A stretch of DNA of 64,000 nucleotides from an uncultured Bacteroidales bacterium (GTDB taxonomy: Bacteria > Bacteroidota > Bacteroidia > Bacteroidales > VadinHA17), in NCBI GenBank assembly GCA_963703935.1, contig CAVPGA010000009.1:1258998-1322997 (forward strand), in the 5' to 3' direction. Of this stretch, positions 1-48,615 are shown piece by piece. The translations under genes and the position numbers were made by a program. The notes under the pieces are model-generated. The model was given only the letters and a program-made list of their open reading frames with translations, ran no database searches and was not told the origin of the DNA. Position 1 is the stretch's first letter. The number at the start of each line of letters is the position of its first letter.

Positions 1-330
1 AGGAAACTTATGTTCAGTTTTTTACTTTAAGAACTTACACAGAGTTCCACTGAGAAGTCGGCCCCTAAATCCCTGCCTACCGGCAGGCAGGCCCTGAAGG
101 GGACTTAAATTTTAGCCACCTTTAGGTCATAGCCGTCAACTTAAGGTGATGGATACAGGAAAATAGGGAGAGTGTTTAAGCCAAAACTGAATGTAAAGTA
201 CTGAATTTAAGTATTATAACTTTCCCCTCCTTAAAAAGGAGGGGAAATGTAAATTATTGAAAATCACTTGCATACAGTCCATTTCATAAGCTATCCTATT
301 TTTTAGGTTTGATGGAGACCAGGGGCGATT
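1..330. repeat. Mosaic of short hairpin-forming intergenic repeat modules (CACAGAG-type arm, CCCCTAAATCCC...GAAGGGGACTT module, CCTGCC-TACC-GGCAGG hairpin, CCCCTCC...GGAGGGG hairpin)
   Basis: The same word modules recur at 7172-7748, 8931-9190, 11950-12420, 20040-20470, 28240-28895 and 37680-37930. No ORF with coding character. Confidence 0.75.
133..230 (+). repeat. 98-nt repeat with an inverted second copy at 37817..37915
   Basis: Manual alignment of 133-230 with the reverse complement of 37817-37915 gives about 7 differences, including one 1-nt indel. Confidence 0.85.
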
Positions 331-4731: not shown

Positions 4732-4777
4732 ACATTCTGTTAAATTTGCGGTTAGTCTTATGTTTTGAAATTATAGG

Positions 4778-5011: not shown

Positions 5012-5051
5012 TACAAAGGAAGTTCAGTCACTCAAACGGAACACTTGTAAC

Positions 5052-7162: not shown

Positions 7163-7171
7163 CCAGATCCA

Positions 7172-7748
7172 GGACTTAGAATAGCCCCCTTTAGGGGACC
7201 GACGTTAAAAAATTGCCGGTGGGCAATTTTAGCGAAGGGGCCAGCCTGCAGGGTAGACCTGTGGTGGGGGTTGGGGGAAACTTAACAGAGTTCCACAGAG
7301 AAATCGTTTACTTTTCAATGGTAGAGGCCGGGCGTTAAATCACCAGCGATTTTGCCCCTAAATCCCCTGAAGGGGACTTAAAGAATAGCCCCCTTTAGGG
7401 GACCGAGCGTTAAAAAATTGCCCGGTGGGCAATTTTAGCGAAGGGGCCAGCCTGCAGGGTAGACCTGTGGTGGGGGTTGGGGGTAAACTTACACAGAGTT
7501 CAACAGAGAGATCGTTTACTTTTCAATGGTAGAGGCCGGGCGTTAAATCACCAGCGATTTTGCCCCTAAATCCCCTGAAGGGGACTTAAAGAATAGCCCC
7601 CTTTAGGGGACCGAGCGTTAAAAAATTGCCCGGTGGAGGGCCGAGCGTTAATAAAACCCCTGTGGGTGTTTTTAGCGAGGAGCCATTGCAGCGATGGTAG
7701 CGAAGGGGCCAGCCTGCAGGGTAGACCTGTGGTGGGGGTTGGGGGCAT
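7172..7748. repeat. Tandem array, about 2.8 copies of a ~205-nt composite unit made of hairpin modules
   Basis: The word GAATAGCCCCCTTTAGGGGACCG starts at 7179, 7383 and 7591. Each unit carries CCCC-CTTTA-GGGG, AATTGCCC-GGT-GGGCAATT and CCCC-TGAA-GGGG hairpins and a CACAGAG-type word. The third copy has an internal insertion and ends at 7745. Confidence 0.9.
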
Positions 7749-7755
7749 CCGGTTG

Positions 7756-8778: not shown

Positions 8779-8930
8779 GGCAGTAATTACTTTATGGTTA
8801 TTGATTAAAATGTCGGGAAAACAAATGAAAGAAACAGGTAAGCATTTTTCCGGGAGTTTGTTTCTTATATAACAACCCGTAAGGCTAAAAGTTCCGGATG
8901 GACCTCAGTGAAGAGTAATATTTAAGGAGG

Positions 8931-9190
8931 GGTGGCCAGACGATGAAATCATCTTACAGGCAGAAACTAAATTCGTCAAGCCGGGGTGGGTGATTCAAAC
9001 CTTTCTTATTCCCTTTATTCAAATTGATAGTAAACACCTCTTTAGCAAGATTAGAGTCATGAAACATAGATTAACCACCCCGGTCGGGAAAGTAAATTGT
9101 AAACCTCTCAAAATCTATGGTCCCGACCACCCCTCATTGAGAAGGAGGGGAAATGTAACATATTGTAAATCAGTTGTATGTAGTTTGTTG
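8931..9190. repeat. Repeat mosaic containing a nearly empty ghost of the DUF559 cassette (8980..9084)
   Basis: GCCGGGGTGG at 8980 and TTAACCACCCCGGT at 9071 mirror the arms seen at 37265/37694. The ~80 nt between them retain a match to the 3' end of the DUF559 gene (GCAAGATTAGAGTCATGAAACATAGATTAACCACC versus GCAAGATTGAGTCATAACATAGTTTAACCACC). The flanking word GCCAGACGATGAAATCATCTTACAGGCAGAAACTAAATTCGTC matches 37705-37750 in inverted orientation. Confidence 0.65.
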
Positions 9191-16919: not shown

Positions 16920-17342
<423 letters not shown>

Positions 17343-20039: not shown

Positions 20040-20470
20040 AACACTGCCCACCGGCTCCCTGGTAAAGTTACGTAAACCCTAAAACATAACCGCAAAGTTC
20101 GCAAAGGTTTCAATCCTGAGATCGCAAAGGGGGGGATAGGGGGGAGCTTGGTGTGCTATGGAAATGGCACGGATTACACTCCGCTTCGGTCGTGGTAAAT
20201 CCGCTAAAATTGCCACGGGAATTTTTTAACGCTCGGCCCCCTTAAGGGGATTTAGGGGCAACCTTGGGGGGAAATAAGAAGGAGGAGCTGTGCGGCCAGC
20301 AATGGTAAATTAAGAACTTACACTGAGTTCCACTGAAAAAGTCACAGAGTTCCACAGAGTTAATATGTGACCGTACTCAAAATCACTCTGTGTCCCGATA
20401 GCTATCGGGACTCTGTGAAACCTCTGTGGATCTCTGTGTAAGTTATTATTAAAAGTTTCTTCCAGGGAGT
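20040..20470. repeat. Repeat mosaic with a long CACAGAG-type hairpin (20315..20444) carrying a perfect 18-nt palindrome (20393..20410)
   Basis: The GCTAAAATTGCC...TTTTTTAACGCTCGG...GGGGATTTAGGGGC block is the reverse complement of modules in the 7.2-7.7 kb unit. The arms AACTTACACTGAGTTCCACTG...CACAGAGTTCCACAGAGTT and CACTCTGTG...CTCTGTGAAACCTCTGTGGATCTCTGTGTAAGTT are complementary. TCCCGATAGCTATCGGGA is self-complementary. Confidence 0.85.
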
Positions 20471-28239: not shown

Positions 28240-28895
28240 ATCTTATCGGGACTCCGGATTTCACCGTCTGGCCAGGGACTGTTGAAAAAGTTAAAATCCT
28301 TTAACCGCAAAGTCCTTCACCAATGCAGATTAATAGGAACATCAAATTTGATAACTTCATAAAATGAGAATCCTTAAATCCTTTAACCACTGAGTTACAC
28401 AGAGTTTCACAGAGTAATACACGGAGTTTCAAAACAGTGTAACTCCGTTTTTACTCCATTAACTCCGTGGTTCAATAACTAATTATCGTCTTTTTGTATA
28501 TAATATGCGTAAAAGAGTAATATAGTAGAGCGCAAAGGATTTATGCAAAGATCGCAAAGTAGCTAATTATTAACGTTTTAGCTTTGCGTGCTTTGCATGT
28601 TTTTAGCGTGCTACTATATAACTATTTAACATAAATTGCCCCACCTGCTCACCCCTAAATCCCCTAAAGGGGACTTTTAAAAACCCAGGGGCGACGTTAA
28701 AAGCCCGTGGGCAATTAGGGAGGAGCCAGTTTGCAGGGGAGACTGTGGTGGGGGCAGGGGGTAAACCGACGGTTAAAACTCTTAACGATCTTAGACTTTA
28801 ATCCTTCCCCTAAAGTTATTCATTTGATGTTCCCATAATTCATGATGGGTGCCAAACTTTGCGGTTAAAAAAGGCTTTTTCAACAGCCTCAGACA
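28240..28895. repeat. Onion-like nested palindrome: outer arms 28278..28355 / 28815..28887 enclosing hairpins 28386..28471 and 28516..28625 and a CCCCTAAATCCC module block
   Basis: The reverse complement of 28815-28887 (GCTGTTGAAAAAGCC...TTAACCGCAAAGTTTGGCACC...GGGAACATCAAATGAATAAC) aligns with 28278-28355. The inner hairpins were verified arm against arm. Confidence 0.85.
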
Positions 28896-29080: not shown

Positions 29081-30444
29081 TTGGGTAGCTTCTTGCATAT
29101 TAAGATTATTAGATTTCTGATAAGTAGTATTTTATTATTATCATTCTTCATTCCTGTCTTCTCTGTTATAAATCAGGCTTCAGATTCGGTTAACAAGAGG
29201 GTGACCAGACGTGCCATCAGGGCATCAGACCAGGTCAGTTATAAATCAACAGGCCGATACCGCTAAACAGCTGGCAGCCGATACCGTAATAGCCGATACA
29301 CTCAAAAATCAGACTGCCGATTCTATATTAAACCAGCCGGGCGCAACACTTAAAACTCAGACGGTCGATTCAGTTCTGATTGAGATACCCGACTCGGTTT
29401 TGTCCCTGCCACGAACCTTTAGTGCTGAGGAGCTTACAAGAGGCGAAAGGCTTTTTTACGGCCTCGCTTATCCTGAAGACAGGGGGGTTAGGTGTGTCAG
29501 CTGCCATAATACCCGCCAGTTGGATACTCTGAACTGGAATCCTGATGCGTTTGAGATTTCAGTGAAATACCTGAACAAAAACGCGGCCGAACTGAAAAAA
29601 GTCCTTCTAAGACCTGCCGGTAAGAAGATGACTGAAGTCCACAATGGATTCCAGCTCACAAATGAAGATATCCTTCTGATCAAAGGGTATATGGACAGGT
29701 TTGTTGATATCGGGATTAAACAAAAAAAGCCTGTTGTAACGAATCTCCTGTTACTTATAATATCTTCCGTCCTGCTTTTTATCTCCCTGACCGATGTTGT
29801 CATTAAAAAGTTATTCAGGAACAAGAATATCAACAGGATAATAATTCCAGTCACATCGGTTGTTATTACGTGGATCCTCGCTGTCAATGCAATTGCATTC
29901 GGACGGGCAACAAATTATTCTCCGGATCAGCCAATAAAGTTTTCTCATGCTGTTCATGCCGGGCAAAACCAGACAGATTGTAATTTATTGCCATTATTCT
30001 GCGAGATCCAGCAAGACTTCGGGAATTCCACCCGGAAATGTCTGTCTGAATTGTCACTTCCTTGTAAAAAGCGGAACCCGGTCAGGTGTGACCGAGATCA
30101 ATAAACTGACAGGTGCTTTTGACAGCGGGAAGGCAGTGGAATGGGTCAGGATCTACAGGTTTCCGGACTTTGTTTTCTTTAGCCATGCACAACATGTAAC
30201 TGCAGGGGGAATTGCCTGTGAAGCATGTCACGGTGATGTAAAGACTATGGACAGGCTCCGGCAGGTGCCCAACCTTGGAATGGGCTGGTGTCTGAAATGT
30301 CATGATTCAAGAAAGGTTAACCTCGGTAACGAATACTATAAAACTTATTTTTCAAGCTTTTACGACTCTTTACAGGCAGGTAAAATCGACAGTGTGACCG
30401 TGTCTGTCACAGGAGGCAGGGATTGCGGAAATTGTCATTATTAA
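29081..30444 (+). pseudogene. actA: ACIII multihaem cytochrome c subunit ActA, about two frame breaks
   Basis: Six CxxCH motifs (CVSCH, C-N/YCH split by the break, CLNCH, CEACH, CLKCH, CGNCH) and a central TM helix. An extra T in AATTTATTG near 29985 separates HAGQNQTDCN from YCHYSARSSKTSGIPPGNVCLNCH. The signal-peptide ORF (29081) and the body (29211) are in different frames. Confidence 0.8.
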
Positions 30445-30466
30445 ATAAACGGCACAACCTTAAGAA

Positions 30467-33445
30467 ATGAAAAAGTACAGGAAAGAAATTGAATCGAAAC
30501 AGAATGAACAGGGAAAGAATAAGCCTGTTGAAACCGTTTATGATGGAAATCCTGTACTATCTGTCCTTGAATGGAAATGGGATTGAGCTGAATTCTTCAA
30601 GGAGGGACTTTTTGAAATTATGCGGATTCAGTTTTGCTCTTGGTGCATTGTCTTCCTGCAAATCAAAGATCAGCAAAGCAATCCCCTATGTTATTGCTCC
30701 AAGGGAAATGACTCCGGGCGAAGCTCTTTGGTATGCATCAAGCTATGTTAATGGCAGTGATTATTGCAGCATTATTGTCAAAACCAGGGATGGCAGGCCG
30801 ATAAAAATAGAGGGGAATCCTTGTCAGGAGTTACCAGCGGTGGTACGAATGCCAGGATTCAGGCCTCGGTTCTGGACCTTTATGATATGACCAGATTTAA
30901 AGGACCACTTAAAAATGGTGCACCGGTTGACTGGCTGCAAATTGATGAAGAAATTATCGGCAGACTTAACAAAATAGTTGCTGATAAAAGATCAATTGTG
31001 CTCCTTACACCATCAGTTTTCAGTCCTTCGACTGAAGCTGTAATTTCAGGGTTTCTTAAAAAATTCCCGGGTTCAGAATGGGTCAAGTATGATGCAATTT
31101 CATATTCTGCAATGCTTGAAGCAAATAAAAGAAGCTTTGGCAGACAGGTAATTCCTGACTACCGTTTTGACAAGGCAGATGTTATCGTCAGTTTCGGAGC
31201 TGATTTTCTTGGTACCTGGCTTTCTCCGATTGAGTATACAAAACAGTTCAGTTCAAGAAGAGATCCTGAACAGAATATGAACTTCCTTGTTCAGATTGAA
31301 TCGAATTGAGCCTTACGGGATGTAATGCCGATAAAAGAATTCAGATCAAGCCTTCACAGGAATATGCAATTCTTCTTAATATTTACAGGGAAATCTGATG
31401 CACTCTTTAAAAGACCAGGAATATCAGCGTACCTGCTTCTCCGGTTGATGTGAGCGGAATTAGCAGAAAAACTTATTTCATCACAGGGAAGATCACTTGT
31501 TAATTTCTGGTTCAAATGTAAAGGAAGATCCAGCTTCTTGTAAACGAGATCAACAGATTTCTTGGAAATATTGGCAATACAATATTGTTCGATTCATACC
31601 TGAGGACCCATGAAGCAACAGATTCGGATATGGAAATGCTTGTCAGAAAGATGAAGGAGGGCAATGTAAATGCTCTTATGATATGGAATGTGAATCCTGC
31701 TTATACCTGGTACAACAGGGATGCATTTTCAAAGGGACTCAAAAAGGTTGGACTTACGTTTCTCTTTCCGGTTCTCCTGATGAAACAAGTGAACTTGTTC
31801 AGTATATATGTCCTGATAACCATTATCTGGAAGCTGGAATGATGCTGAGCCCAAAAAGGATTTTTACAGTCTGATGCAACCGGTTATCAGTCCGATATTT
31901 GATACACGTCAGATGGCTGATACATTATTGAAATGGTCAGGTTCGTCCAGATGATTTCTATGATTTTATAAGGTCTTACTGGACTGAACATATGATGCCG
32001 CGGCAAACGGAATTTCATGATCCTGTTGCTTTTTTTGACAACACAGTTGCAAAAAGGGATCTTTGAACCTGGCAGTCAAAGTCGAAAATTAACTGACTCC
32101 CAGGTGGCTCGTTTGCCATCCAGACCATTTATATCCGGAAAAAGTCAATGAATGCCGGCGAAGCATCTTTTGAAATTATCCTGTATGAACCAGTTGCAAT
32201 TGGTGAAGGCAGGCAGTCCAATAATCCATGGCTCCAGGAATTGCCTGATCCGGTGACCAGGATCTGCTGGGACAATTATGCATCGATCTCTGTGTTACAG
32301 GCAAAGGAAATTGGACCTGACAGACGGTGATCTTATTGATCTGGGAGGAGTTGATACTGCCGTCTCATCTCAGCCCGGACAGGCATATGGAACCATTGGA
32401 TTGCACTTGGATATGGCCGCCGGATTGTGGTAAAGTTGGTGAAGGAGTAGGAGACGATGTATGGCAGCTGCTTTCAATCAGAAAATGGTAATATCATGTA
32501 TACCAGGAATCTGGATCAAATTCTGAAAACAGGGAGCGGATACCTCTTTGCCCAGACCCAGACCCATCAACGATGGAAGGAAGAGCCATTTGTCCGTGAA
32601 GCAGGATTGAAGGAATTCAGGAAGAATCCGTCAGCCGGCAATGAATTGCATCGAATATTTTACATCCAAGGCAAAAAGTCTTTATAAGGAAAGGAAATAT
32701 CCTCATCATCACTGGGGTATGGCAATTGATCTGAGCAAATGTACCGGATGCGGAAACTGTGTTATTGCCTGTCAGGCAGAGAATAATGTTCCGGTTGTGG
32801 GAAAGGAGGAAGTACACCGGGTTCACGAAATGCACTGGATCAGGATAGACAGGTATTACACCGGTGATGATAGATCCGGAAGTTGTTTTTCAGCCTGTTC
32901 TTTGTCAGCATTGCCAGAATGCCCCCTGTGAAAATGTCTGTCCGGTTGCAGCCACAAACCATAGTTCTGAAGGTTTGAATCAGATGATATACAACCGCTG
33001 CTTCGGAACACGGTACTGTAATAATAACTGTCCTTACAAAGTCAGAAGATTTAACTGGTTCAATTATACCGAAGCAGGTACACTTTCGCGGCAATCTGAG
33101 GGATAAGGCAGGAATGACAGGTGATCTCCGACGGATGGTGCTTAATCCTGATGTTACTGTCCGGGGACAGGGAGTCATTGAAAAATGTTCTTTCTGTGTT
33201 CAGCGTATCCAGGCAGCAAAACTGAAGGCAAAATCTGAAAACAGGGCATTGTTCAAAAATGAAATTCAGACAGCCTGTTCGCAGAGTTGTCCGGCAAATG
33301 CAATTATTTTTGGGGATCTGAATGATGAAAGATAGTGAAATGAACAGGATGATCAGCAGGCGGACGAAGTTATAATCTTCTTGAGGAGTTGTTTACCATG
33401 CCATCGGTTAATTATCTGACCAAAATAAGAAACAGAATTTCGTAA
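30467..33445 (+). pseudogene. actB: ACIII molybdopterin-like / FeS subunit ActB, heavily fragmented (a dozen or more frame breaks)
   Basis: Tat motif SRRDFLKLCGF. IKIEGNP..SGVTSGGTNARIQASVLDLYD. FeS motifs [61 protein letters not shown] and CSQSCPANAIIFGDLND. The colinear pieces switch among all three frames between 30.5 and 33.4 kb. Confidence 0.85.
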
Positions 33446-33463
33446 ATAAAAATAATATCAGAT

Positions 33464-34840
33464 ATGTTTCAATCTCCACTGCGGACACCTTTAATTGAAG
33501 GTAAAAAAACTTACCAGGATATCAGCGACCAGATCCTTAATCCGATGATGAACAAGCCGATAAATTCTGGTATCTGGGGATGACCTTGTCCTTCGGTGCC
33601 ATGCTATTCGGACTTTTAATGATTTTCTGGACAGTCTGGCAGGGAATTGGAACCTGGGGAGAAAACAGAACAGTCGGATGGGCTTTTGAAATAACCACAT
33701 TTGTCTGGTGGATCGGGATAGGACATGCCGGTACATTTATTTCTGCAATTCTTCTGCTTTTCAGGCAGAAATGGAGAAACAGCATTAACCGTTCTGCCGA
33801 GGCAATGACAATATTTGCCGTTATCTGTGCAGCCCTTTTCCCTCTTATTCATCTGGGGCGGCCACTGCTTACCTTTTTCATATTCCCTTATCCCAACACC
33901 AGAGGTCTCTGGGTTAACTTCAATTCTCCGCTGGTATGGGATGTATTTGCAATTTCGACATATTTTACTATTTCACTGGTATTCTGGTATGTAGGATTGA
34001 TTCCTGATATTGGTACCCTGCGTGACAAACTCAGGAAGGGAATCAAAAAGAGCATTTATAATTTTCTGAGCTTCAGCTGGAAGGGATCAGCAAGAGACTG
34101 GCACCGGCATGAAATCACTTCAATAATGCTGGCAGCAATTGCTACTCCGCTTGTTCTGTCTGTTCACAGCATTGTAAGTATGGACTTTGCTGATTCAATA
34201 CTTCCGGGATGGCACACGACGATATTTCCTCCCTACTTTGTTGCAGGAGCAATTTTCTCGGGATTTGCAATGGTTCTGACCCTGTTGATAATTGCAAGAA
34301 AAACCATGGGACTCGAGGATTTTATTACGATAGAGCATGTGGAAAATATGAATAAGATCCTCATTGCTACCGGTTCGATTGTTGCCCTGGCTTACTATAA
34401 CTGAAATATTCATGTCGTGGTATTCCGGCGTCGAGTATGAGCAGGCGAATTTAATTAACCGGATGACCGGCCCATACTGGTGGGCATACTGGATAATGAT
34501 AGGCTGCAATGTTGTTTCTGCCCAGCTGCTGTGGATCAAGAAGCTCAGGACAAACCTCCTGTTTACCTTCTTCCTGTCAATTGTGATTAATATCGGAATG
34601 TGGTTCGAACGATTCGTTATAATTGTTACTTCTCTGCACAGGGATTTTCTGACTTCAAGCTGGACTATGTACAAACCTACCATAGTTGAGTACGGGCTTA
34701 TAATCGGGACGCTGGGGATCTTCTTTACAGCATTCCTGCTCTTCATAAGGGTATTTCCGGTCATCTCAATATTCGAGGTGAAATCAATCCTGAAAGTAGA
34801 AACTGCCGGTCAGGCCAAAAGAAATAATCATCATGAATAA
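33464..34840 (+). pseudogene. actC: ACIII NrfD/PsrC-like membrane subunit ActC, two frame breaks
   Basis: MFQSPLRTPLIEGKKTYQDISDQI, then [15 protein letters not shown]...[17 protein letters not shown], then a third frame from about 34390. Polytopic throughout. Confidence 0.8.
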
Positions 34841-35342
34841 TCCAGATTATATATCAGTTTATTTCGATGATGAGGATCCTATGCGCCAGGCTGTAATGAA
34901 ACTGCTCGAAAGCAACGAGAAGATCATTGATGTGATGACGCCCTTTCCCGTCCATGGAATTGACAGGCTCCTGTCAATCAGGAGATCACGAATCCCTGTG
35001 GGAGGATTTATTTTTGGTTTTCTGGGTGCAGTTTCTGCCTTTGGTTTCATGGCCTGGGTTTTTACTGTCAGTTACCCGCTGATCATCGGAGGTAAACCTT
35101 TTTTTGCAGCACCCTCCTTTATTCCAATCACTTTCGAGATGACTGTCCTTTTTGCCGGTTTGTCGATGGCCGCAGCAATGCTGATAAGATCGAAGCTTAA
35201 ACCGGACATAAGGTTTAAGCCCGCAGATGAAAAGATTACCGATAATATGTTTGTGATACTTGTTGACACCGGGGACGGGAAAACAACTCCTGAGAAAATC
35301 AGGTCCATCTTATCGGGTATTAAAATTTTTGAAATGAAATAA
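34833..35342 (+). CDS. actD: ACIII subunit ActD (DUF3341)
   Basis: 169 aa, intact. VYFDDEDPMRQAVMKL...TPFPVHGID plus two TM helices. Overlaps the actC end by 8 nt. Confidence 0.75.
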   Translation: MNNPDYISVYFDDEDPMRQAVMKLLESNEKIIDVMTPFPVHGIDRLLSIRRSRIPVGGFIFGFLGAVSAFGFMAWVFTVSYPLIIGGKPFFAAPSFIPITFEMTVLFAGLSMAAAMLIRSKLKPDIRFKPADEKITDNMFVILVDTGDGKTTPEKIRSILSGIKIFEMK

Positions 35343-35357
35343 TCTGAGTCTGAAAAT

Positions 35358-36519
35358 ATGGATGAGCAATTCATTTTCAGAAAGGGGTACCGGAATATTC
35401 TGGTTGTCGTGATGACCGGGGCTCTGCTTGTTGCCCTGGTGAGCATACTTGTTTCCCGGACTGATGCTTCAAGGATCTGGGCAAATGTTCTCCTTAATAA
35501 TCAGTTTTTCCTGGGTATTTCCCTGGGTGCTGCTTTCTTCATTGCAGTTCACAGGATTTCACTGTCCGGATGGCATACAGTCCTGCAGCGGGTGCCCGAG
35601 GCGATGACGGCTTTTCTTCCTGTTGCTTTTTTCCTGATGCTTCTCATTTATTTTGGCATGAATAACATTTACCACTGGTCTCATTACGAGGGTTATGATC
35701 CGGTACTGGAAGGAAAAAAAGCCTGGCTTAACATTCCGTTCTTCTTTATCAGGATGGTATTTTATTTTTCCGGATGGATTGCTCTTACATGGTTGATGAG
35801 AAAGAATTCAAATGCGCTTATGACATCTTCTGATATAAAATATCACAACAGGAGAAAATTATTCGGTGGACTATTCCTGGTTTTTTTCGGGATAACAGTT
35901 TCAACAAGCAGCTGGGACTGGATAATGTCCGTTGATGCTGAATGGTACAGTACAATTTTCGGATGGTATGTCTTTATCGGCATGTTTGTCACTTCACTTG
36001 CTTTATTATCCTTATTTCTGGCTTCTCAGACGCCAGGGTTACCTTACCCTTTTAAGGGATGACCATGTTCATGACCTGGCAATACTTCTCTTTGCCTTCA
36101 GCATATTCTGGACCTATCAGTGGTTCTGCCAGTACCTGCTGATCTGGTATGGACATCTTCCTGAGGAAACATCTTACTTTATCCCAAGGCTGAATGAGTT
36201 CAGAGTGATTTTCTTCCTAAACCTGGGGATTAATTTTATCGTGCCGTTCTTTGGTCTTATCCGGTCCCGGTCAAAGAAAAACCTTGACTGGATAGCTCTT
36301 ATGGCAGCCATAACCTTTATCGGGCACTGGATCGATTACTGGCTTATGATTATGCCGGGATCCGCCGGTGAAAATGCCGGGATCGGATTACTCGAAATCT
36401 CTGCTACCGTACTTTATACAGGTTTGTTCATTTTTGTGGTTTTCAGATCTCTGGCACATGGACCGGTTATTGTGAAAAATGATCCTTTTCTTGAAGAGAG
36501 TCTGAATTATGAATCATGA
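35358..36519 (+). pseudogene. actF: ACIII membrane subunit ActF (Bacteroidota quinol:cytochrome c oxidoreductase type), one frame break near 36050
   Basis: RIWANVLLNNQFFLGISLGAAFFIAVHRI...YHWSH...AWLNIPFFFIRMVFYF continues in ORF 35932-36519 after a shift. Confidence 0.7.
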
Positions 36520-37157
36520 TAATATTAAAAACATTAAAGATCTGAGGATGTTTAGATCAAGACTTATATCAACCCGACTTCCTGTATTTCTTGTTTTGAT
36601 GCCTTTACTATTCTCATGTGACAGGACAAGAACAATGCGTGGATATGACTTCATCCCGGATATGACCTATTCGCGTGCTTACGAGACTTTCTCGCAAAAT
36701 CCCAATTTTTCTGACAGCTCTGACGATGAGGGTTCCGGAAGTAAATACTGTCCCCAGGGGTTACCTTCCTTTCAGATATACAATTGATCCGGAAGAACGG
36801 GTCAGGGCAGGGAGCGAACTTCAGAATCCATTCCTCCCGACGGATGAAGTAGTTGCGAGGGGTCAGTTCATTTTCACCACATTCTGCATTGTCTGCCATG
36901 GGATCAAAGGCGTCGGTGACGGGCATCTTTATATAAGCGGGCTCTATCCGCTGAAACCACGGACGCTTACAGGAGCTGTTGCAAGAAAGCTTAAAGACGG
37001 CGAGATTTTTCACACCGAAACCCTGGGATTCGGATCAATGGGAGGTCACGGTTCGCAGATAAAACCTGACGACAGGTGGAAGTTAGTAAAATACATCAGG
37101 AAACTCCAGGCGAATGCCATTATAACAGGCGATACAGCAGCAATCCTAAAACCCTGA
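36509..37157 (+). pseudogene. actE: ACIII monohaem cytochrome c lipoprotein ActE, one frame break near 36715
   Basis: Lipobox LLFSC. YDFIPDMTYSRAYETFSQNPNFSD, then in another frame MRVPEVNTVPRGYLPFRY...FCIVCHG. Confidence 0.75.
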
Positions 37158-37264
37158 GGACCATAGTGTTACGATTCATCCTCTTGTACCTTCTCAAAGG
37201 AACGAGGATAGGCCAGGTTATGAAATCGAATTTATTATCTGGCATTTACCTGTTTTCATTTCCC

Positions 37265-37708
37265 GGCCGGGGTGGTTAAACTATGTTATGACTCAATCTT
37301 GCCTGAAAAAACTTCTTTATCTCTTTTAAAACGAATTCGGGATACTGGAACACAAACCTGTTCTCAAATCTGAGTACGGTGAATCCTAGGTCTTCAAGAT
37401 ACTTGTCCCTGATTGTATCTTTCCATACCTGCACAGGCACTCCCATGAAGATCTCCATCAAGCTCAATTATCAGTTTCTCCGACGGACAATAGAAATCAA
37501 ACTATATACTTACCGATACTGTGTTGTCTTCTGAATTTTCTGCCATCAAGATTCTTTGACTTTAACTTATTCCATAAAACAGCTTCTGCAGATGTGGAGT
37601 TATTTCTCAGAGATGTCTGGGAGGTTTTAAGCTTTTTAGGTTTAAGAGGTGTTTACTCTCCATTTGAATAAATGGTACTAAGAAAGACTTGAATTAACCA
37701 CCCCGGCC
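37265..37708. repeat. Perfect 15-nt inverted repeat (GGCCGGGGTGGTTAA at 37265..37279, TTAACCACCCCGGCC at 37694..37708) bracketing the DUF559 gene
   Basis: Read directly. The left arm contains the DUF559 stop codon. Confidence 0.9.
37276..37660 (-). pseudogene. DUF559 (Vsr-like endonuclease fold) domain gene, at least two frame breaks
   Basis: The minus strand reads SLRNNSTSAEAVLWNKLKSKNLDGRKFRRQHSIGKYIV, then DFYCPSEKLIIELDGDLHG, then WKDTIRDKYLEDLGFTVLRFENRFV, in three frames. Confidence 0.75.
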
Positions 37709-37930
37709 AGACGAATTTAGTTTTCTGACTGTAGATGATTTCACCGTCTGGCACTGTGAATCCTTGAACTTCGTGATAACTTTGGTGGCATAATCATCCC
37801 AGATCACGTATTAAAAGGAGGGCGAAAGTTATAATACTTAAATTCAGTACTTTAAATTCAGTTTTGGCTTAAACTCTCTCCCTATTTCCCTGTATCCATC
37901 TCCTTAGATTGACGGTTATACCCCGAGGCC
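37680..37930. repeat. Repeat mosaic (GCCAGACG...CGTCTGGC hairpin, inverted copy of the 98-nt repeat at 37817..37915)
   Basis: See 133-230 and 8931-9190. Confidence 0.8.
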
Positions 37931-37944
37931 CACTACCGGATATT

Positions 37945-38892
37945 TCACTGTTTCAGCGATTTAAGATATTCAATTATTTTTGCAACATCATCTTGCGAGA
38001 GGACCCCTGTATAACTCTGCATCAGGTTCTTTGGGTACCCTTTTACTGTTTCAGAATTTGGGTCGTAAACAGCTTTATGGACATATGCTTCATCGACGGT
38101 AATTGTGACCTCCTTCCCATCCCTTATTACTGTTTGTTGTTCACCGAAGATATTTAAGTAACTGGGTCCTATAATTCTTGATCCGTCAGTGGAATGGCAT
38201 GCAAAACAACCCTGGGCCTTCATTATGGCTTCTCCCTCTGCGCCTGGTCCTGTTCCCGCGGTAGCGAGGGTAACTTTCGTGGTATCGATAAACCATTTAT
38301 CGAACTCTTCACGGGATACGACTTTAACGGCTGAGCGCATATAGGAATGTGATAATCCGCAATATTCAGCACAGAAAATATCATATTTGCCTTCCTTACC
38401 CGGAAGAAACCACATCATCTTCTGCCTGCCCGGGATCATATCTGATTTTATCCTGAATGCCGGAATGAATAGACTGTGGATTACATCCAGCGAAATAAGA
38501 TTTATTTTAACAGGGGTATTAACCGGAACGATCAGATCGGGACTCTGTTTGCCATTTTCGTATGTAAATGAAAAATTCCACATCCTTGCAATACTTGTCA
38601 CGTTCATTGCATCCTTCGGAGGCTTGGTAAGTGGTTTCCATCCTGCCCATCCAAAATAGAACATTACCAGCGCCAGCAGTATCGGAATGACTGTCCAGGC
38701 GATCTCCAGCCTGTTGTTGCCTTCAATCTGGACAGCGACCTTATTCCTTTTCTTGTTGTACCTGAAAACAAACTAGAGCATGATTAAGGTAAGTGCCGCA
38801 AGGAGCAGTAATGAAATACCCGCGATATACTAGAATGCAGTATTGTAGGAAGTAACAAAATTTGAAGCGTCTATTGGATTTGTTGAATACAT
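37945..38892 (-). pseudogene. ctaC: Cytochrome c oxidase subunit II with C-terminal cytochrome c domain (caa3 type); two in-frame TAG codons in the N-terminal part
   Basis: CuA site CAEYCGLSHSYM and haem site CFACHS. Reading upstream in frame from ORF 37945-38664 gives MYSTNPIDASNFVTSYNTAF-TAG-YIAGISLLLLAALTLIML-TAG-FVFRYNKKRNK...EIAWTVIPILLALV. The stops are at 38830-38832 and 38773-38775. Confidence 0.8.
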
Positions 38893-38897
38893 ACTGA

Positions 38898-39194
38898 TTA
38901 TCTGAATAGGTAGTCCAGGAGTGTAATAATTATTACAGCAACAATTAGAAGTATCACAAATGTAACAAGAATCGCTATAATCCTGCTCTCAAACTTGAGG
39001 TGCATAAAGATTCTAAGAACAAATGATGATTTGACGGCAGCTATAATAAGTGCCAGCGCCACTGTCAGGGAGCCCAGGTAAATTTGTGTGAGTGCCACAG
39101 AAACAAGTGTTAGCCCGATCAGTAAGGCCAGTACATACAGAAATGTCCTGTAGGGAATTATATGATCCTTATTTTCAGTTTTTTCCATAAACAT
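38898..39194 (-). CDS. ctaF: Cytochrome c oxidase subunit IV (prokaryotic type)
   Basis: 98 aa, intact. AAVKSSFVLRIFMHLKFE motif and 3 TM. Confidence 0.7.
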   Translation of the reverse strand: MFMEKTENKDHIIPYRTFLYVLALLIGLTLVSVALTQIYLGSLTVALALIIAAVKSSFVLRIFMHLKFESRIIAILVTFVILLIVAVIIITLLDYLFR

Positions 39195-39801
39195 CAGGTA
39201 ATAAGATAAAACAATGGAAAAAGGAATATCCAGATCAGGTCGACAAGATGCCAGTATAATCCGCTGTTTTCGAGCAAAACATAGTCACTGGAATTTATCC
39301 GTCCACGAATAATGGCGACCGTTACAAACCCCATAAAGATAAGTCCTATAATTATATGCAGCGCATGAAGACCTGTCATAAAAAAGTATAATCCATAAAA
39401 TAGAACATCACCCTGCCCACGCAGGGCAAGTACTGATGAACCCGGATAGATATGTTCCCTTATATGTTCTCCCCATTCAAAGTATTTATTTACAAGAAAA
39501 GCGATACCAAGAATTACAGTAATGCCAAGAAGTAAAAGTGCCAGTTTTTTATCCTGTTTCCTGATTGCTGTAATCGACATGGCTATTGTTGCACTGCTTA
39601 TAAGGAGAATTATTGTATTGACTGTACCGATAAAAACGCTCAGTTCCTGGGCGGCAAGGTGAAATGCCTCAGCATTTCTGTACCTGTATACTGAGTATAC
39701 AATAAAAAGGCCCCGAATAGCAGCATTTCGGTAAACAGGAACAGCCACATTCCGGTTTTGGATGCCAGATCATCACGGTGTATTTCTTTTATCGTATTCA
39801 T
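39194..39801 (-). pseudogene. ctaE: Cytochrome c oxidase subunit III, one frame break near 39715
   Basis: MNTIKEIHRDDLASKTGMWLFLFTEMLLFG, then GLFIVYSVYRYRNAEAFH... in another frame. The break lies in a G-run (TTCGGGGCC). Confidence 0.75.
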
Positions 39802-41407
39802 TTATAATCGTATGGTCCTTTGGTAATTACAGGTTGTCTCTTCAAAATTTTCAACCGGAGGAGGAGAAGGAATTGTCCATTCCAGGGTTTTGCCTCCCCA
39901 GGGATTTGCAGGAGCCTTTATTCCCTTTTTCAATGAAGCGAACAGATTAATGATATAATCATTGCCCCGGAGTAAAGAACCCATGATCCCATTGTTGAAA
40001 TAATATTCCCGGCATGAAATATTTCATCATAATCAAAATACCTTCTGGGCATACCTTTTACTCCAAGGTAAAACATCGGACCATAAAGTGTTATAAATCC
40101 TACAAAAAACAGGAGCAAACCAATATTTGCCCATCTGGTATCATACATTTTCCCTGTTATTTTCGGATACCAGTAATGCATTGCTCCAAAAAAAGCAAAA
40201 CCTGTTCCTCCGAATACAATAAAATGAAAATGAGCAACAACAAAATGTGTATTATGCAAGATGAACATTGGTTGCAAGTGAACCAAGAATAAGTCCGGAA
40301 AATCCACCGATCATGAATACAAAAATAAATGCCATTGCCCAGTAAAAAGGAGTTTGCAGATCAATGGAACCCTTATGCATTGTGGATATCCAGTTAAATA
40401 CTTTTATGGCACTCGGAATTGCTACAAGAAATGTCAGAAGTGAAAAAGTATAAAGAGCTGTTCCGCTCATTCCTGAAGTGAACATATGATGTCCCCAGAC
40501 AAAATAACCTACAAAGGCAATTGCCATGGCTGAAGCAACCATGAATTTGTATCCGAATATTGTTTTATGGGAGAAAGTTGATATAATCTCTGAAATTGCT
40601 CCCATTGCAGGTAGTATCATAATATATACTGCCGGATGACTGTAGGTCCAGAACAGATGCTGATAAAGAAGAGGATCACCTCCAAGTGTCGGATCGAAAA
40701 ATCCGATATGCAGTATTCTTTCAGCAGCAACCATGAGCAGGGTTATTCCGATAATCGGAGTGGCAAGCAGCTGTACCCATCCTGTGGCATAAAGTGTCCA
40801 TGGGAATAATGGCATTTTCAGCCAGGTCATTCCCGGAGCCCTCATCCTGTGCATTGTCACCAGAAAATTCAGCCCGGTCAGGATTGATGAAAATCCGAGA
40901 ACAAATGCTCCAAATACTGCAGGAAGCATATTCCCGGCTGTTCTGAAACTGTAAGGTGCATAAAATGTCCAGCCTGTATCAGGAGGTCCCTGACCTGTAA
41001 ACTGTGATATAACTACAAGTGTAACTCCGGTAACATAAAAATACCAGGAAAGCAGGTTTAGTCTTGGAAATGCAACATCTTTTGCTCCGATCATGATAGG
41101 AAGGAGGAAATTACCAAATACTGCAGGCAAGCCCGGAATGACAACAGCAAATATCATTATTATTCCGTGGAGGGTAAAAAATGCATTATAGGTCTTGTGC
41201 ATCCACAATGGTTTTACCCGGGGCAATAAGCTCAAACTTCATTAGCAAACCGATTGTAGCCCCAATGGCAAAAACTGTAAGGATTGAAAACAGGTAAAGC
41301 ATGCCGATCCTTTTATGATCGGTGGAAAATATCCAGGCAAATATGCCTTTATATTTTCCTTTATGATTAAGATAACTGGGTTCATCGAGGTTGGTTTGTG
41401 TACTCAT
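39798..41407 (-). pseudogene. ctaD: Cytochrome c oxidase subunit I, four frame breaks
   Basis: Colinear pieces are ORFs 41186-41407, 40252-41235, 39930-40307 and 39802-39984, plus a last piece ending [14 protein letters not shown] that overlaps the ctaE ATG. At about 40285 an extra G sits between CTT and CAT (LATNVHL / [14 protein letters not shown]). Confidence 0.85.
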
Positions 41408-42204
41408 TTACTGCCCCTTGATTTAAATTTAACACGTGATAATGCAAGATACAAAAATACCAGTAAACCAATAAATGTAATTACTATTGCTGAAACCCTC
41501 GTTACATTAAATACAAACTGATTTCCTGTATCATCATACGAATAGCAAACTGCAAGAAGCCGGTTGATGCTTGGACCGATCTTTCCGTCTGCTGCTTCGA
41601 CCAGTGTTATTTTTATATCAAACGGCAGAAATTCAATTCCCCGGAGATACCTGATGATCTTTCCGTCAGATGCAAGGGCAATCAGTCCTGTAGGATGTAC
41701 AAACTGATTGTTGAATCTTGTATAGTTGAAACCTACTGATTGGTTAGCCTGGCAATGTTTAAACTGTCAGAAACAAAAAACGACCAGTTTTGGGCAGCTT
41801 CCTCTTTCTTTTCCATTGTACTAAGATAGCTGGCCTTCTTTTCTTTTCCCAGCATGATACCTTCTGTCGGATCAAAGCTGACTGTAATAACCTCGTAATC
41901 ATTTCCGAGCTTCAAGATCAACCTCATCAATGAATTTTGAGATTCCCCACATCAGTGGACTGCATGTTCCGGGACATTCAAAATATACCAGATTCAGAAT
42001 CGTGGGCTTATTTATGATATCCCTCAGCAGAACGGTATCTCCGTTTTCATTTACCAGTCTTGTATCCAGGTCAGCATACTGACCCTGTTTTTCCTCAAAT
42101 CCAACCTGCATCTGCTGGTCAAAGAGCGATTTCTGGGAAAAGGTTTCTACACTTGTCAGAAAGATGCAAAGTCCGATTAATAATTTAAATTTTGGTGTCA
42201 GCAT
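41404..42204 (-). pseudogene. SCO1/SenC-family copper chaperone, two frame breaks
   Basis: CPGTC (CxxxC) motif. Pieces are 41899-42204, 41733-41930 and 41404-41740 (...DGKIIRYLRG...YSYDDTGNQF plus a C-terminal TM). The TGA overlaps the ctaD ATG (ATGA). Confidence 0.7.
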
Positions 42205-48482: not shown

Positions 48483-48545
48483 GGGTTTATGTGCTTATCT
48501 AGCATATAAACAGTGTTTCCGGGAGATTTGTTCAATGCTACTATT

Positions 48546-48607
48546 GTCTTGCAGTCTTGCAGTCATGCAGTCTTGCAGTCTTGCAGTCTTGCAGTCTTGC
48601 AGTCTTG
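48546..48607. repeat. Octanucleotide tandem tract, seven full GCAGTCTT units (one GCAGTCAT variant)
   Basis: Read directly, 48551-48606 plus partial flanks. Lies 64-125 nt upstream of the Rieske ATG and 9 nt downstream of the preceding stop. Confidence 0.95.
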
Positions 48608-48615
48608 AACGACAT

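What the first reader, a model, noticed from the sequence alone, without database searches (positions are those of the whole stretch)
37265..37708. DUF559 nuclease-fold gene bounded by a perfect 15-nt inverted repeat, with an almost empty ghost copy elsewhere
GGCCGGGGTGGTTAA (37265-37279, containing the stop codon) and TTAACCACCCCGGCC (37694-37708) bracket a decayed DUF559 gene. It lies exactly at the junction of the converging ACIII and oxidase clusters.

At 8980-9084 the same arm words bracket only about 80 nt, which still match the 3' end of the gene, in the opposite orientation. The adjacent GCCAGACG...AAATTCGTC word is shared between the two loci.

This looks like a small cassette (nuclease-fold ORF plus terminal inverted repeats) that exists in full-length and internally deleted forms. 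That would make it a candidate autonomous partner, or hitch-hiker, of the hairpin repeat system.
Basis: partly seen in the sequence, partly recalled or inferred. Interest (0 to 1): 0.65.

Follow-up and report, generated by a model that had tools for sequence, protein, structure and literature searches.

The report
Dead nuclease cassette flanked by triplex repeats
A broken copy of a small nuclease gene (DUF559) sits between two mirror-image copies of a known but unexplained bacterial DNA repeat (BoxC/PIT "triplex motif"); the same pairing turns up across many bacterial phyla and in E. coli, which suggests this nuclease family is the missing partner of those repeats.

Summary
GGCCGGGGTGGTTAA (37265-37279) and its reverse complement (37694-37708) bracket a DUF559 pseudogene with four 1-nt indels. 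A second locus (8921-9187) is the same element with 341 nt of gene interior deleted.

The 15-mer is only the innermost block of a ~90-nt module on each side. Each module points at the gene and has three parts:
- a hairpin, CCCCTCCTT-loop-AAGGAGGGG;
- an inserted second stem-loop;
- GGGGTGGTT, the mirror image of the purine arm.

This is the architecture of the BoxC/PIT/"TM" intrastrand-triplex repeats (Holder 2015), whose origin and partner genes were unknown.

Evidence that the element was inserted and then decayed:
- A relative with 91.5% identical DNA carries the intact 125-aa gene and intact modules at the same cyt c/COX2 junction.
- More distant relatives have an empty site where the two genes abut.

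Evidence that the pairing is general:
- Of 77 DUF559 loci from many phyla, 39 have inward-pointing triplex motifs on both sides and 24 on one side. Shifted controls give 0 of 255 with both.
- The third block covaries with the hairpin.
- E. coli ycjD also abuts BoxC #9.

I found no paper linking DUF559 to these repeats. That the cassette is selfish is likely. That the nuclease acts on the repeats is inferred, not shown.

The parts
37158..37944 (-). Whole inserted block between the cyt c stop (37155-37157) and the COX2 stop (37945-37947). In more distant relatives these two convergent genes abut or overlap.
   Evidence: empty sites in L082-L087; L088 has the same block with everything intact.
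37286..37663 (-). DUF559 (Vsr-like PD-(D/E)XK) pseudogene. ATG is at 37663-37661 and the ancestral stop at 37288-37286. It has four 1-nt indels relative to the intact orthologue P0121 (125 aa).
   Evidence: the orthologue P0121 is 89% identical to the read-through translation.
37265..37279 (+). Left arm of the reported inverted repeat. It consists of the GGCC end of the second stem-loop, then GGGGTGGTT (third-strand block of the gene-downstream triplex motif), then AA.
37694..37708 (-). Right arm of the reported inverted repeat: third-strand block of the gene-upstream triplex motif.
37705..37752 (.). Second stem-loop (hpB) of the upstream module: GGCCAGACG, a 31-nt loop, then CGTCTGGC. It is inserted between purine block and third-strand block. 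It is 92-93% identical to the copy in a different genome (L001), where the gene itself is only ~73% identical.
37753..37825 (.). Remains of the upstream hairpin A (CCCCTCCTT..AAGGAGGGG in L088). Its 3' arm has been replaced by about 58 nt of other sequence.
37821..37919 (.). Outer arm (99 nt) ending in the outer terminal repeat ...CTTAGATTGACGGTTAT. It is the inverted copy of 129-227.
   Evidence: (I1).
37180..37264 (.). Decayed downstream module. A degenerate hairpin A occupies 37180-37207. The second stem-loop hpB' occupies 37211-37268, with a mutated stem and a 12-nt insertion. The 65-nt outer arm present in L088 is deleted here.
37151..37159 (+). ACCCTGAGG, a direct repeat flanking the block. 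Its partner is ACCCCGAGG at 37920-37928. In L088 both copies are ACCCTGAGG. It is a possible target-site duplication.
   Evidence: It is ambiguous because CCTNAGG is nearly palindromic, and other copies show no clear duplication.
8921..9187 (+). Ghost copy with an internal deletion of the gene, equivalent to removing 37303-37643. In order it holds:
- purine arm of hairpin A, 8924-8932;
- hpB, 8934-8981;
- GGGGTGGGT, 8983-8991;
- 5' UTR plus the first codons (ATG mutated to ATT), 8994-9044;
- the last 26 nt of the gene region, 9045-9070;
- AACCACCCC, 9073-9081;
- hpB', 9083-9127;
- hairpin A, 9130-9150;
- outer arm, 9151-9187.
129..309 (.). Solo form: both outer arms around a single hairpin A (224-244). 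There is no nuclease gene and no third-strand block. It folds as a ~180-nt imperfect palindrome.

Best explanation
The feature is a dead copy of a selfish cassette in which a small DUF559 endonuclease gene sits between two inward-facing copies of an intrastrand-triplex repeat of the BoxC/PIT/TM type.

**Anatomy.** Each repeat has three blocks:
- a pyrimidine block;
- its complementary purine block, which together form a hairpin;
- a third block that mirrors the purine block.

In this Bacteroidales lineage a 45-50-nt stem-loop is inserted before the third block. The whole cassette is nested in a further pair of outer inverted arms.

**History, shown by comparison.**
1. The composite was inserted between the abutting convergent cyt c and COX2 genes in an ancestor.
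2. It stays intact in a close relative.
3. In the window it has decayed, together with the neighbouring respiratory genes.
4. The locus at 8921-9187 is a deletion derivative, and 129-309 is a gene-less solo form.

**Mechanism, inferred.** The nuclease recognises or cuts the repeat, either as duplex DNA or as a folded single strand at a replication fork. The break or stall is then repaired by copying from a gene-bearing unit. In this way the gene spreads into gene-less repeat pairs, and the repeats spread with it. This resembles homing and the REP/RAYT relationship. The first arrival at a repeat-free site needs another route, such as transposition of the outer arms or illegitimate recombination.
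For: **Shown**
- Pfam DUF559 at E=2.6e-33.
- The intact orthologue is at the same junction, in DNA 91.5% identical over 8.4 kb. Empty sites occur in five loci from more distant relatives.
- There are dispersed near-identical copies within genomes.
- Flanking inverted repeats exceed the 95th percentile of shifted controls in 58 of 76 loci.
- Hairpin density is 6.4/kb within 250 nt of the gene and 0.17/kb elsewhere.
- A perfect mirror third block lies on the gene-proximal side in 59 of 132 modules, on the distal side in 4 of 128, and in 0.8% of shuffles. It changes in step with the hairpin: AAGGAGGGG with GGGGTGGTT, AAGGAGAGGG with GGGTGAGGTT, GGAGAAGGG with GGGATGAGG.
- Triplex motifs are present on both sides in 39 of 77 loci, against 0 of 255 controls.
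- In L026 the gene occupies one unit of an array of gene-less repeat pairs.
- dN/dS is 0.21 for L088 vs L089 and 0.30 for L001 vs L007.
- The closest characterised fold is the homing endonuclease I-Bth0305I (3R3P, E=3e-4), after the uncharacterised 3HRL.
- The stop codon of E. coli ycjD overlaps a degenerate motif, and BoxC/TMECO #9 lies 170 nt downstream, past a ghost of the ycjD 3' end.

**From the literature**
- The motif forms a stable triplex in vitro, marks unstable loci, and had no known partner gene (PMC4666352).
- DUF559 is enriched among genes bracketed by inverted repeats (PMC9881135).
Against: - There is no biochemical evidence that any DUF559 protein cuts or binds these repeats.
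- The 125-aa protein lacks the separate DNA-binding domain of I-Bth0305I.
- The ancestral site in this lineage had no repeat. Homing into an existing repeat therefore cannot explain the first arrival here.
- A target-site duplication is not established.
- 14 of 77 loci have no recognisable motif.
- E. coli keeps 23 motifs with a single ycjD, and ycjD is absent from 38% of complete genomes.
- The 80 loci were chosen by peptide patterns from one query and descend from a common ancestor, so they are not independent events.
- Holder et al. found no in-vivo triplex signal.
Confidence: 0.6

Rival explanations
1. **Passive cargo.** The triplex/hairpin repeats, or the outer inverted arms, are mobilised by some other enzyme such as a transposase acting in trans. 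The DUF559 gene is merely carried between them, or was captured once and inherited with them. The nuclease has an unrelated cellular role, for example a Vsr-like repair nick.
For: - The outer arms have their own terminal repeats and a 9-nt flanking direct repeat in L088.
- A solo form without gene or third block exists at 129-309.
- Solo modules occur in metagenomes.
- E. coli motifs persist without ycjD (PMC4666352).
Against: - The pairing holds across phyla, down to 41-45% protein identity, and without the Bacteroidales outer arms.
- The third block always faces the gene.
- Hairpin and mirror block are kept through compensatory changes.
- Purifying selection acts on dispersed copies.
- No transposase gene accompanies the cassettes in the loci inspected.
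Confidence: 0.2
2. **Guardian nuclease.** The triplex motifs come first and are harmful obstacles to replication. DUF559 is a structure-specific nuclease kept by the host to process them. It is found next to them because linkage is favoured or because they insert around it.
For: - The motif blocks DNA polymerase in vitro and marks unstable loci (PMC4666352).
- DUF559 belongs to the Vsr-like repair nuclease lineage.
- Purifying selection acts on the gene.
Against: - This does not explain why the gene lies precisely between two inward-facing motifs a few to ~30 nt from its ends.
- It does not explain multi-copy near-identical cassettes.
- It does not explain insertion into a repeat-free site.
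- It does not explain easy loss of the gene.
Confidence: 0.1
3. **Invertible switch.** The inverted repeats are recombination sites for programmed inversion of the gene segment, giving phase variation.
For: - DUF559 genes are enriched (odds ratio 14) among predicted programmed-inversion targets (PMC9881135).
- The same hpB variant lies upstream of the gene in the window and L088 but downstream of it in L001/L007.
Against: - No recombinase gene lies nearby in the window, L088 or L089.
- The 5' UTR travels with the gene, so inversion would not switch expression.
- The enrichment in that study follows from any inverted-repeat bracket.
Confidence: 0.05
4. **Assembly artefact.** The frameshifts in the DUF559 gene and its neighbours are sequencing errors, and the gene is really intact.
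For: - The source contig is 1.4 Mb, suggesting a long-read assembly.
- One of the four indels lengthens a T run.
Against: - Disruptions are concentrated in one region. About 16 frame breaks fall in the 12 kb of ACIII/cox genes, and none in about 17 kb of other long ORFs in the window.
- The flanking hairpins carry substitutions, a 58-nt replacement and a 65-nt deletion that are not indel noise.
- Part of ActB drops to 45% identity.
Confidence: 0.05

Closest known systems
BoxC / PIT elements / TM(ECO) intrastrand triplex motifs (Bachellier 1990s; Hoyne & Maher 2000; Holder et al. 2015, PMC4666352)
   Same: - It has the same three-block design: a pyrimidine block, a complementary purine block, and a third block that mirrors the purine block (G on G, T or A on A).
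- It is intergenic, often occurs as inward-facing inverted pairs, and is associated with local deletions and variability.
- TMECO #9 in E. coli lies next to the DUF559 gene ycjD.
   Different: - The blocks here are CCCCTCCTT / AAGGAGGGG / GGGGTGGTT rather than CCCTCNCCC / GGGNGAGGG / GGGNGAGGG.
- The second linker is a 45-50-nt stem-loop instead of 3 nt.
- The published work reports no consensus in flanking genes and no link to mobile elements, and it never mentions DUF559.
REP sequences with their RAYT gene (REPtron; REPIN doublets)
   Same: - A single small enzyme gene is bracketed by inverted copies of the short structured repeat that is dispersed in the genome.
- Gene-less inverted doublets of the repeat occur elsewhere (L026, the E. 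coli pairs, the window ghost).
   Different: - The enzyme is a hydrolytic PD-(D/E)XK/Vsr-like nuclease, not an HUH tyrosine transposase, so it cannot transfer strands itself.
- The cassettes are multi-copy and cross phyla, whereas RAYTs are usually single-copy and vertically inherited.
- The repeat is a triplex-type motif rather than a simple hairpin.
EDxHD homing endonucleases (I-Bth0305I, PDB 3R3P; PMC3239194)
   Same: - The catalytic fold is Vsr-like, and it is the closest characterised structure.
- The acidic/histidine residues are conserved: D56, E67, D69, H73, D86 in alignment A5.
- It shows selfish-gene behaviour.
   Different: - It has no NUMOD/helix-turn-helix DNA-binding domain.
- It is not inside an intron or intein.
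- It is flanked by structured inverted repeats, which homing endonuclease genes normally lack.
MITEs and their autonomous parents
   Same: - It has terminal inverted repeats and exists in full-length and internally deleted forms.
- The orthologous site shows presence/absence polymorphism.
- Contigs often break at the element.
   Different: - It encodes no recognised transposase.
- A target-site duplication is not established.
- At least one miniature (L081) sits at the same locus as the full copy, so some miniatures arise in place.
NGO0050 of Neisseria gonorrhoeae (PDB 3HRL) and E. coli YcjD
   Same: - Both belong to the same short DUF559 family. 3HRL matches at E=1e-19 by sequence and 44% identity in the fold comparison. 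NCBIfam PRK09767/YcjD matches at E=5e-20.
- N. gonorrhoeae is reported to hold about 100 G/C-rich triplex motifs (PMC4666352).
   Different: Neither protein has a known function. Their repeat context has not been described.

Membership tests
DUF559 (PF04480), Vsr-like PD-(D/E)XK nucleases | Profile match above the curated threshold | tested here: met
   The read-through translation scores 114.6 bits against a cut-off of 20.6, E=2.6e-33. The surviving 63-aa ORF scores 31.3 bits.
DUF559 (PF04480), Vsr-like PD-(D/E)XK nucleases | Intact reading frame with the catalytic D...E-x-D...H...D residues | tested here: not met
   The residues are still encoded (VDFYC, IELDGDLHG), but four 1-nt indels break the frame. 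The orthologue P0121 is intact, and these residues are invariant or nearly invariant in 35 relatives.
DUF559 (PF04480), Vsr-like PD-(D/E)XK nucleases | Restriction-endonuclease-like fold | tested here: met
   The AlphaFold model of orthologue P0121 has pLDDT 80. Foldseek gives 3HRL at E=1.6e-9 and 3R3P at E=3e-4.
BoxC/PIT/TM intrastrand triplex motif | Pyrimidine block and complementary purine block forming a hairpin | tested here: inconclusive
   The hairpins are perfect in the orthologue L088 and in L089, L001 and others. In the window copy both are decayed. The ghost keeps one (9130-9150) and the solo form keeps one (224-244).
BoxC/PIT/TM intrastrand triplex motif | Third block that mirrors the purine block (G on G; T or A on A), on the same strand | tested here: met
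   GGGGTGGTT mirrors AAGGAGGGG at 9 of 9 positions. The third block is perfect on both sides in the window. Family-wide, 59 of 132 are perfect, against 4 of 128 on the wrong side.
BoxC/PIT/TM intrastrand triplex motif | Short linkers (N3-6 and N3 in the E. coli consensus) | tested here: not met
   In this lineage the second linker is a 45-50-nt stem-loop. Many other DUF559 loci do have 2-4-nt linkers.
BoxC/PIT/TM intrastrand triplex motif | Formation of a triplex by the single strand | not testable with these tools
   This has been shown in vitro only for the E. coli sequence (PMC4666352). The folding tool models duplex hairpins only.
MITE / terminal-inverted-repeat transposon | Terminal inverted repeats | tested here: met
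   There is a 15-nt perfect inner pair, ~90-nt modules, and outer arms ending in ATAGSCGTCAAY.
MITE / terminal-inverted-repeat transposon | Target-site duplication | tested here: inconclusive
   L088 has a 9-nt direct repeat ACCCTGAGG, and the window has it with one mismatch. The repeat contains a near-palindrome, and it is not seen at L089 or L096.
MITE / terminal-inverted-repeat transposon | Filled and empty orthologous sites | tested here: met
   The site is filled in the window, L088 and L081, and empty in L082-L087.
MITE / terminal-inverted-repeat transposon | A transposase in the autonomous form | tested here: not met
   The only ORF is DUF559, a hydrolytic nuclease fold. No transposase family was hit.
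Homing endonuclease gene (EDxHD family) | Vsr-like catalytic domain with the EDxHD residues | tested here: met
   residues as defined in PMC3239194.
Homing endonuclease gene (EDxHD family) | N-terminal sequence-specific DNA-binding domain (NUMOD/HTH) | tested here: not met
   The 125-aa protein is covered almost entirely by the DUF559 profile, and no other domain was found.
Homing endonuclease gene (EDxHD family) | Cleavage of the allele that lacks the gene | not testable with these tools
   This needs an enzyme assay.
REP/RAYT system | HUH Y1 transposase | tested here: not met
   The gene is DUF559.
REP/RAYT system | Gene flanked by inverted copies of the dispersed repeat, with gene-less doublets elsewhere | tested here: met
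   E. coli inverted TMECO pairs.
Programmed inversion locus | Site-specific recombinase next to the inverted repeats | tested here: not met
   The neighbours are cyt c and COX2 in the window and L088, and a hydrolase and BlaI/BlaR in L089.

The most novel reading that the evidence does not exclude
Short DUF559 nucleases are structure-specific enzymes that recognise the folded intrastrand triplex (or its hairpin) formed by BoxC/PIT-type repeats in single-stranded DNA. Together with these repeats they form a previously unrecognised class of mobile element, widespread across bacterial phyla. The element would spread by nuclease-triggered or stall-triggered copying between repeat units. This would explain both the origin of BoxC-type repeats and the function of a very large family of unknown function, including E. 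coli YcjD.
Probability: 0.2. Interest if true: 0.9.

Novelty: new variant of a known kind. Interest (0 to 1): 0.72.

Why it matters
BoxC/PIT/triplex repeats have been known in E. coli since the 1990s. They occur in hundreds of genomes, with hundreds of copies in Microcystis and about 100 in Neisseria gonorrhoeae.

DUF559 is a very large family. Thousands of relatives were found at E<=1e-20 in one search. It has a solved structure but no function.

A systematic, oriented, covarying association between the two gives each a candidate partner. It also makes the question testable in E. coli K-12, which has one DUF559 gene (ycjD) and 23 motifs.

It also bears on assembly and annotation:
- The cassettes break contigs.
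- They leave ghost fragments.
- They can be read through in frame, as in hsdR.

Tried and rejected
- **tRNA-like origin of the flanks.** A T-loop-like GGAATTCGATTCC occurs in hpB of L002-L006. Rfam finds tRNAs elsewhere in these loci but nothing on the flanks, so I rejected this.
- **Known RNA family on the flanks.** None was found.
- **Checking the frameshifts with raw reads.** No public run holds more than 7% of the words.
- **Looking up the COX2 ORF by exact product.** It is not on record, because it is truncated.
- **Metagenome scan with an outer-arm pattern.** There were no hits. The second scan, with the hpB+G-box 23-mer, gave 7 loci.
- **Phage carriage.** Only one distant relative occurs in 2.9 million viral contigs.
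- **Known defence system.** The only hit was a weak partial match to DpdF.
- **Target-site duplication as proof of transposition.** This is ambiguous.
- **E. coli strains without ycjD.** The segment is replaced by eefRABC and leaves no miniature or motif, so it gives no filled/empty pair.
- **Intact copy on the same 1.4-Mb contig.** None appears among the best 120 homologues. The contig itself could not be scanned.
Full report
**1. The observation**

The 15-mer GGCCGGGGTGGTTAA occurs at 37265-37279, and its reverse complement at 37694-37708. With up to two mismatches the window holds three matches against 0.09 expected, and no shuffle of 100 reaches three.

Between the arms, on the minus strand, is a DUF559 gene broken into three frames. 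A read-through translation hits Pfam PF04480 at E=2.6e-33. The element lies between the stop of the last ACIII gene (a cytochrome c, 37157) and the stop of COX2 (37945); these genes converge.

A self-comparison shows the repeated unit is larger than the 15-mer pair. Positions 37259-37302 match 9091-9045, and 37644-37752 match 9042-8935. The second locus is therefore the same element, in the opposite orientation, with 341 nt of gene interior removed. It keeps both ends of the gene, not only the 3' end.

**2. Anatomy, read from intact relatives**

A scan of one genome per species returned 80 loci with DUF559 relatives. The seven closest (67-73% aa identity, four MAGs) are all intact, and all carry CCGGGGTGG upstream and CCACCCCGG downstream.

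A protein search then found an 89%-identical, intact 125-aa protein, P0121. It lies at the same cyt c/COX2 junction in a contig whose DNA is 91.5% identical to the window over 8.4 kb (L088).

Reading from outside towards the gene, each flank of L088 has four parts:
- an outer arm;
- hairpin A, CCCCTCCTT-loop-AAGGAGGGG;
- a second stem-loop closed by GGCC...GGCC;
- GGGGTGGTT.

The gene follows about 30 nt later on the upstream side and about 10 nt away on the downstream side. The two flanks are inverted copies of each other.

Compared with L088, the window copy has the following damage:
- four 1-nt indels in the gene;
- a destroyed upstream hairpin A (a 58-nt replacement);
- mutated stems in the downstream hairpins;
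- a deleted 65-nt outer arm.

In L088 the true stop codon lies 7-9 nt before the arm. In the window the ORF runs into the arm only because of a 1-nt deletion.

**3. The flank module is a known repeat class**

GGGGTGGTT is the mirror image of the purine arm AAGGAGGGG, with T opposite A. This is the rule for a purine-motif intramolecular triplex.

It is also the design of the E. coli BoxC repeats, later called PIT elements and TM/TMECO. Their consensus is CCCTCNCCC N3-6 GGGNGAGGG N3 GGGNGAGGG (Holder et al. 2015, PMC4666352).

That paper reports the following:
- the motif occurs in more than 260 genomes;
- the single strand forms a stable triplex in vitro;
- no triplex signal was detected in vivo;
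- motif loci are unusually variable among E. coli strains;
- five inward-facing inverted pairs exist in K-12;
- no association with mobile elements was found.

The paper does not mention DUF559 or ycjD.

**4. How general the pairing is**

I tested the 80 loci in four ways.
- *Best inverted repeat.* I took the best inverted repeat between the 200 nt before and the 200 nt after the gene. It exceeds the 95th percentile of 530 position-shifted controls in 58 of 76 loci, and many exceed the control maximum.
- *Hairpin density.* C-rich hairpins occur at 6.4 per kb within 250 nt of the gene and 0.17 per kb elsewhere in the same loci.
- *Mirror third block.* A perfect mirror third block lies within 70 nt on the gene-proximal side of the hairpin in 59 of 132 flank modules. 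The figure is 4 of 128 on the distal side and 0.8% in shuffled sequence.
- *Strict rule per locus.* Requiring a hairpin plus at least 85% mirror triads pointing at the gene, 39 of 77 loci have the motif on both sides, 24 on one side and 14 on neither. Shifted positions give 0 of 255 with both and 10 of 255 with one.

The blocks change together:

| Purine arm | Third block |
|---|---|
| AAGGAGGGG | GGGGTGGTT |
| GAGGAGGGG | GGGGTGGTG |
| AAGGAGAGGG | GGGTGAGGTT |
| GGAGAAGGG | GGGATGAGG |
| AAAGAGGGG | GGGGAGATT |

Both the hairpin and the mirror relation are therefore maintained through compensatory change.

The loci are labelled Bacteroidota, Gammaproteobacteria, Alphaproteobacteria, Thermodesulfobacteriota/Deltaproteobacteria, several Patescibacteria lineages, Ignavibacteria, Calditrichaceae, Terriglobia, Myxococcota and others.

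There are two caveats. The loci were found with peptide patterns from one query, and they share ancestry, so they are not independent events. The covariation is the stronger argument for constraint.

**5. E. coli**

NCBIfam places the protein with PRK09767/YcjD. In K-12, the last codons and the stop of ycjD are encoded by a degenerate motif (CACCCTCTCCCTGAAAGAGCGAGGGGG). A duplicated fragment of the ycjD 3' end follows. TMECO #9 of Holder's Table 1 (1,351,204-1,351,239) lies 170 nt downstream.

ycjD is present in 3378 of 5426 complete E. coli genomes. In others the segment is replaced by the eefRABC efflux genes.

**6. Evidence for insertion, spread and decay**

*The orthologous site.*
- In relatives whose cytochrome c is 72-76% identical, the two convergent genes overlap by 9 nt or are 2-3 nt apart (L082-L087).
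- In L088 a 773-nt block with the intact cassette lies between them.
- In the window the block is decayed.
- In the 87% relative L081 the contig ends in a miniature: GGCCGGGGTGGTTAA, about 50 nt, then TCAACCACCC.

*Dispersal.*
- Three copies in one MAG are 95-97% identical. Two copies in another are 91.7% identical over exactly 565 nt, with similarity ending at the hairpins.
- L089 is an 84% copy at an unrelated locus with the same flanks and outer arms.
- Many homologues sit on very short contigs, as expected for repeats.

*Gene-less units.*
- In L026 the gene occupies one unit of a tandem array of gene-less, inward-facing motif pairs with ~65-nt spacers.
- Arrays also occur in L004, L008 and L019.

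*Selection.* dN/dS is 0.21 for L088 vs L089 and 0.30 for L001 vs L007.

*Solo modules.* Of seven metagenome loci holding the hpB+third-block 23-mer, two have an intact gene and five are solo or fragmentary modules.

**7. The outer layer**

In L088, L089 and L096 the cassette is nested in outer arms that are inverted copies of each other and end in ATAGSCGTCAAY. Window 129-309 is these arms around a single hairpin A, with no gene and no third block. It folds as a long imperfect palindrome.

L088 has a perfect 9-nt direct repeat ACCCTGAGG at the two ends, and the window has it with one mismatch. However, the repeat contains the near-palindrome CCTNAGG, and L089 and L096 show no clear duplication. 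I therefore treat a target-site duplication as unproven.

**8. The protein**

- The closest solved structure by sequence is 3HRL, N. gonorrhoeae NGO0050, of unknown function (E=1e-19).
- The model of P0121 (pLDDT 80) matches 3HRL first. Next is the catalytic domain of the homing endonuclease I-Bth0305I (3R3P, E=3e-4, probability 1.0). Vsr matches only weakly.
- The acidic and histidine residues of the EDxHD/Vsr site are invariant or nearly so in 35 relatives (residues as in PMC3239194).
- The protein has no separate DNA-binding domain.
- It is not in a known defence system and is almost absent from viral contigs.

**9. Literature**

Twenty-five papers in the library mention DUF559, and none describes flanking repeats. 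One lists DUF559 among annotations enriched in genes bracketed by inverted repeats (odds ratio 14), without comment (PMC9881135). Searches for Vsr-like plus inverted repeats, for COG2852/PF04480, for ycjD, and for intrastrand triplex found nothing linking the two. Within what I could search, the association is unreported.

**10. Interpretation**

*Shown.* The window holds a dead copy, a deletion derivative and a solo form of a cassette. The intact form is a DUF559 gene between inward-facing triplex-type repeats. The cassette was inserted at this site in an ancestor. The pairing is widespread, oriented and maintained by covariation.

*Inferred.* The nuclease acts on the repeats and drives copying between repeat units.

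*Against a pure homing model.* The ancestral site here had no repeat, so at least the first arrival used another route.

*Rivals.*
- Passive cargo.
- A host guardian nuclease for a troublesome DNA structure.
- An invertible switch.
- An assembly artefact.

The artefact reading is unlikely. Frame breaks are concentrated in the ACIII/cox region (about 16 in 12 kb) and absent from about 17 kb of other long ORFs. In addition, the flanks carry substitutions and larger rearrangements.

**11. Verdict**

The local copy is an inert remnant. Its value is that it exposes an apparently unreported, general link between a large nuclease family of unknown function and a long-known repeat class of unknown origin. 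That link can be tested directly in E. coli.

Noticed in passing
window 29211-42111: The whole ACIII (actA-F) and cytochrome oxidase (COX1-4, SCO1 region) cluster looks pseudogenised.
- There are about 16 frame breaks in 12 kb relative to intact orthologues.
- ActB changes frame at least 7 times.
- COX1 is split (Pfam positions 34-337 and 335-436).
- ActC, ActF, cyt c and COX3 are each split.
- COX2 is truncated to 239 of 320 aa.
- Other long ORFs in the window are intact.

This suggests recent loss of aerobic respiration in this Bacteroidales lineage.
   Followed up: partly
window 7355-7375, 7563-7583, 20238-20258, 28652-28672: There is a second, shorter repeat of the same three-block design, CCCCTTNAGGGG-ATTTA-GGGG. 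It gives 7 pattern matches against 0.13 expected. It is not next to any DUF559 gene in the window. A 28-nt stretch of it is 100% identical in a different genome (L001 4533-4560), just downstream of that genome's cassette.
   Followed up: partly
window 7169-7760: There is a cluster of ~208-nt tandem units made of several short hairpin repeats, such as GGGGACCGAGCGTTAAAAAATTGCCCGGTGGGCAATTTT. A 76-nt piece is 91% identical to the sequence that replaces the outer half of hairpin A beside the cassette in L007.
   Followed up: no
window 16920-17342: A tRNA gene (16920-16994) is followed by ~172-175-nt tandem duplications that repeat its 3' part and downstream hairpins. L003 has a similar arrangement (4742-5134).
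   Followed up: no
window 48538-48615: There are about nine tandem copies of the 8-nt unit GTCTTGCA between two divergently placed ORFs. This could be a slippage-prone tract.
   Followed up: no
L034 3011-6529, L038 620-4306, L053 2945-6622: In three genomes labelled as different phyla, a DUF559 domain is inserted in frame in the type I restriction subunit HsdR. The insertion is translated together with its flanking hairpins. It sits at the same place, between the HSDR_N nuclease domain and the SWI2/SNF2 ATPase. The 1172-1228-aa ORFs stay open.
   Followed up: partly
L071 2612-4753: One 713-aa ORF reads through EPSP synthase, a DUF559 cassette and a NUDIX domain. The flanking repeats are translated on both sides as nearly the same peptide (VPLLTPPxKGEENSPSLREGVR).
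   Followed up: no
L090 (E. coli K-12 NC_000913.3 1351200-1351830): ycjD (DUF559) starts inside a perfect 17-bp hairpin (TCACCTCATTCTGACAA...TTGTCAGAATGAGGTGA) and ends inside a degenerate BoxC-like motif. It is followed by a ghost of its own 3' end and by BoxC/TMECO #9.
   Followed up: partly
L005 (contig labelled Chloroflexota MAG, 3.9 kb): This contig carries a cassette of the Bacteroidales type: 70% aa identity, the same arm words and the same hairpin A. That points either to a mis-binned contig or to recent transfer between phyla.
   Followed up: no
L081 3110-3190 compared with window 9045-9091: The miniature at the cyt c junction of L081 and the window's ghost copy share a derived CATGAAACA variant; the gene-bearing copies have CATAACATA. 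Either miniatures form their own propagating lineage or copies exchange sequence by gene conversion.
   Followed up: no
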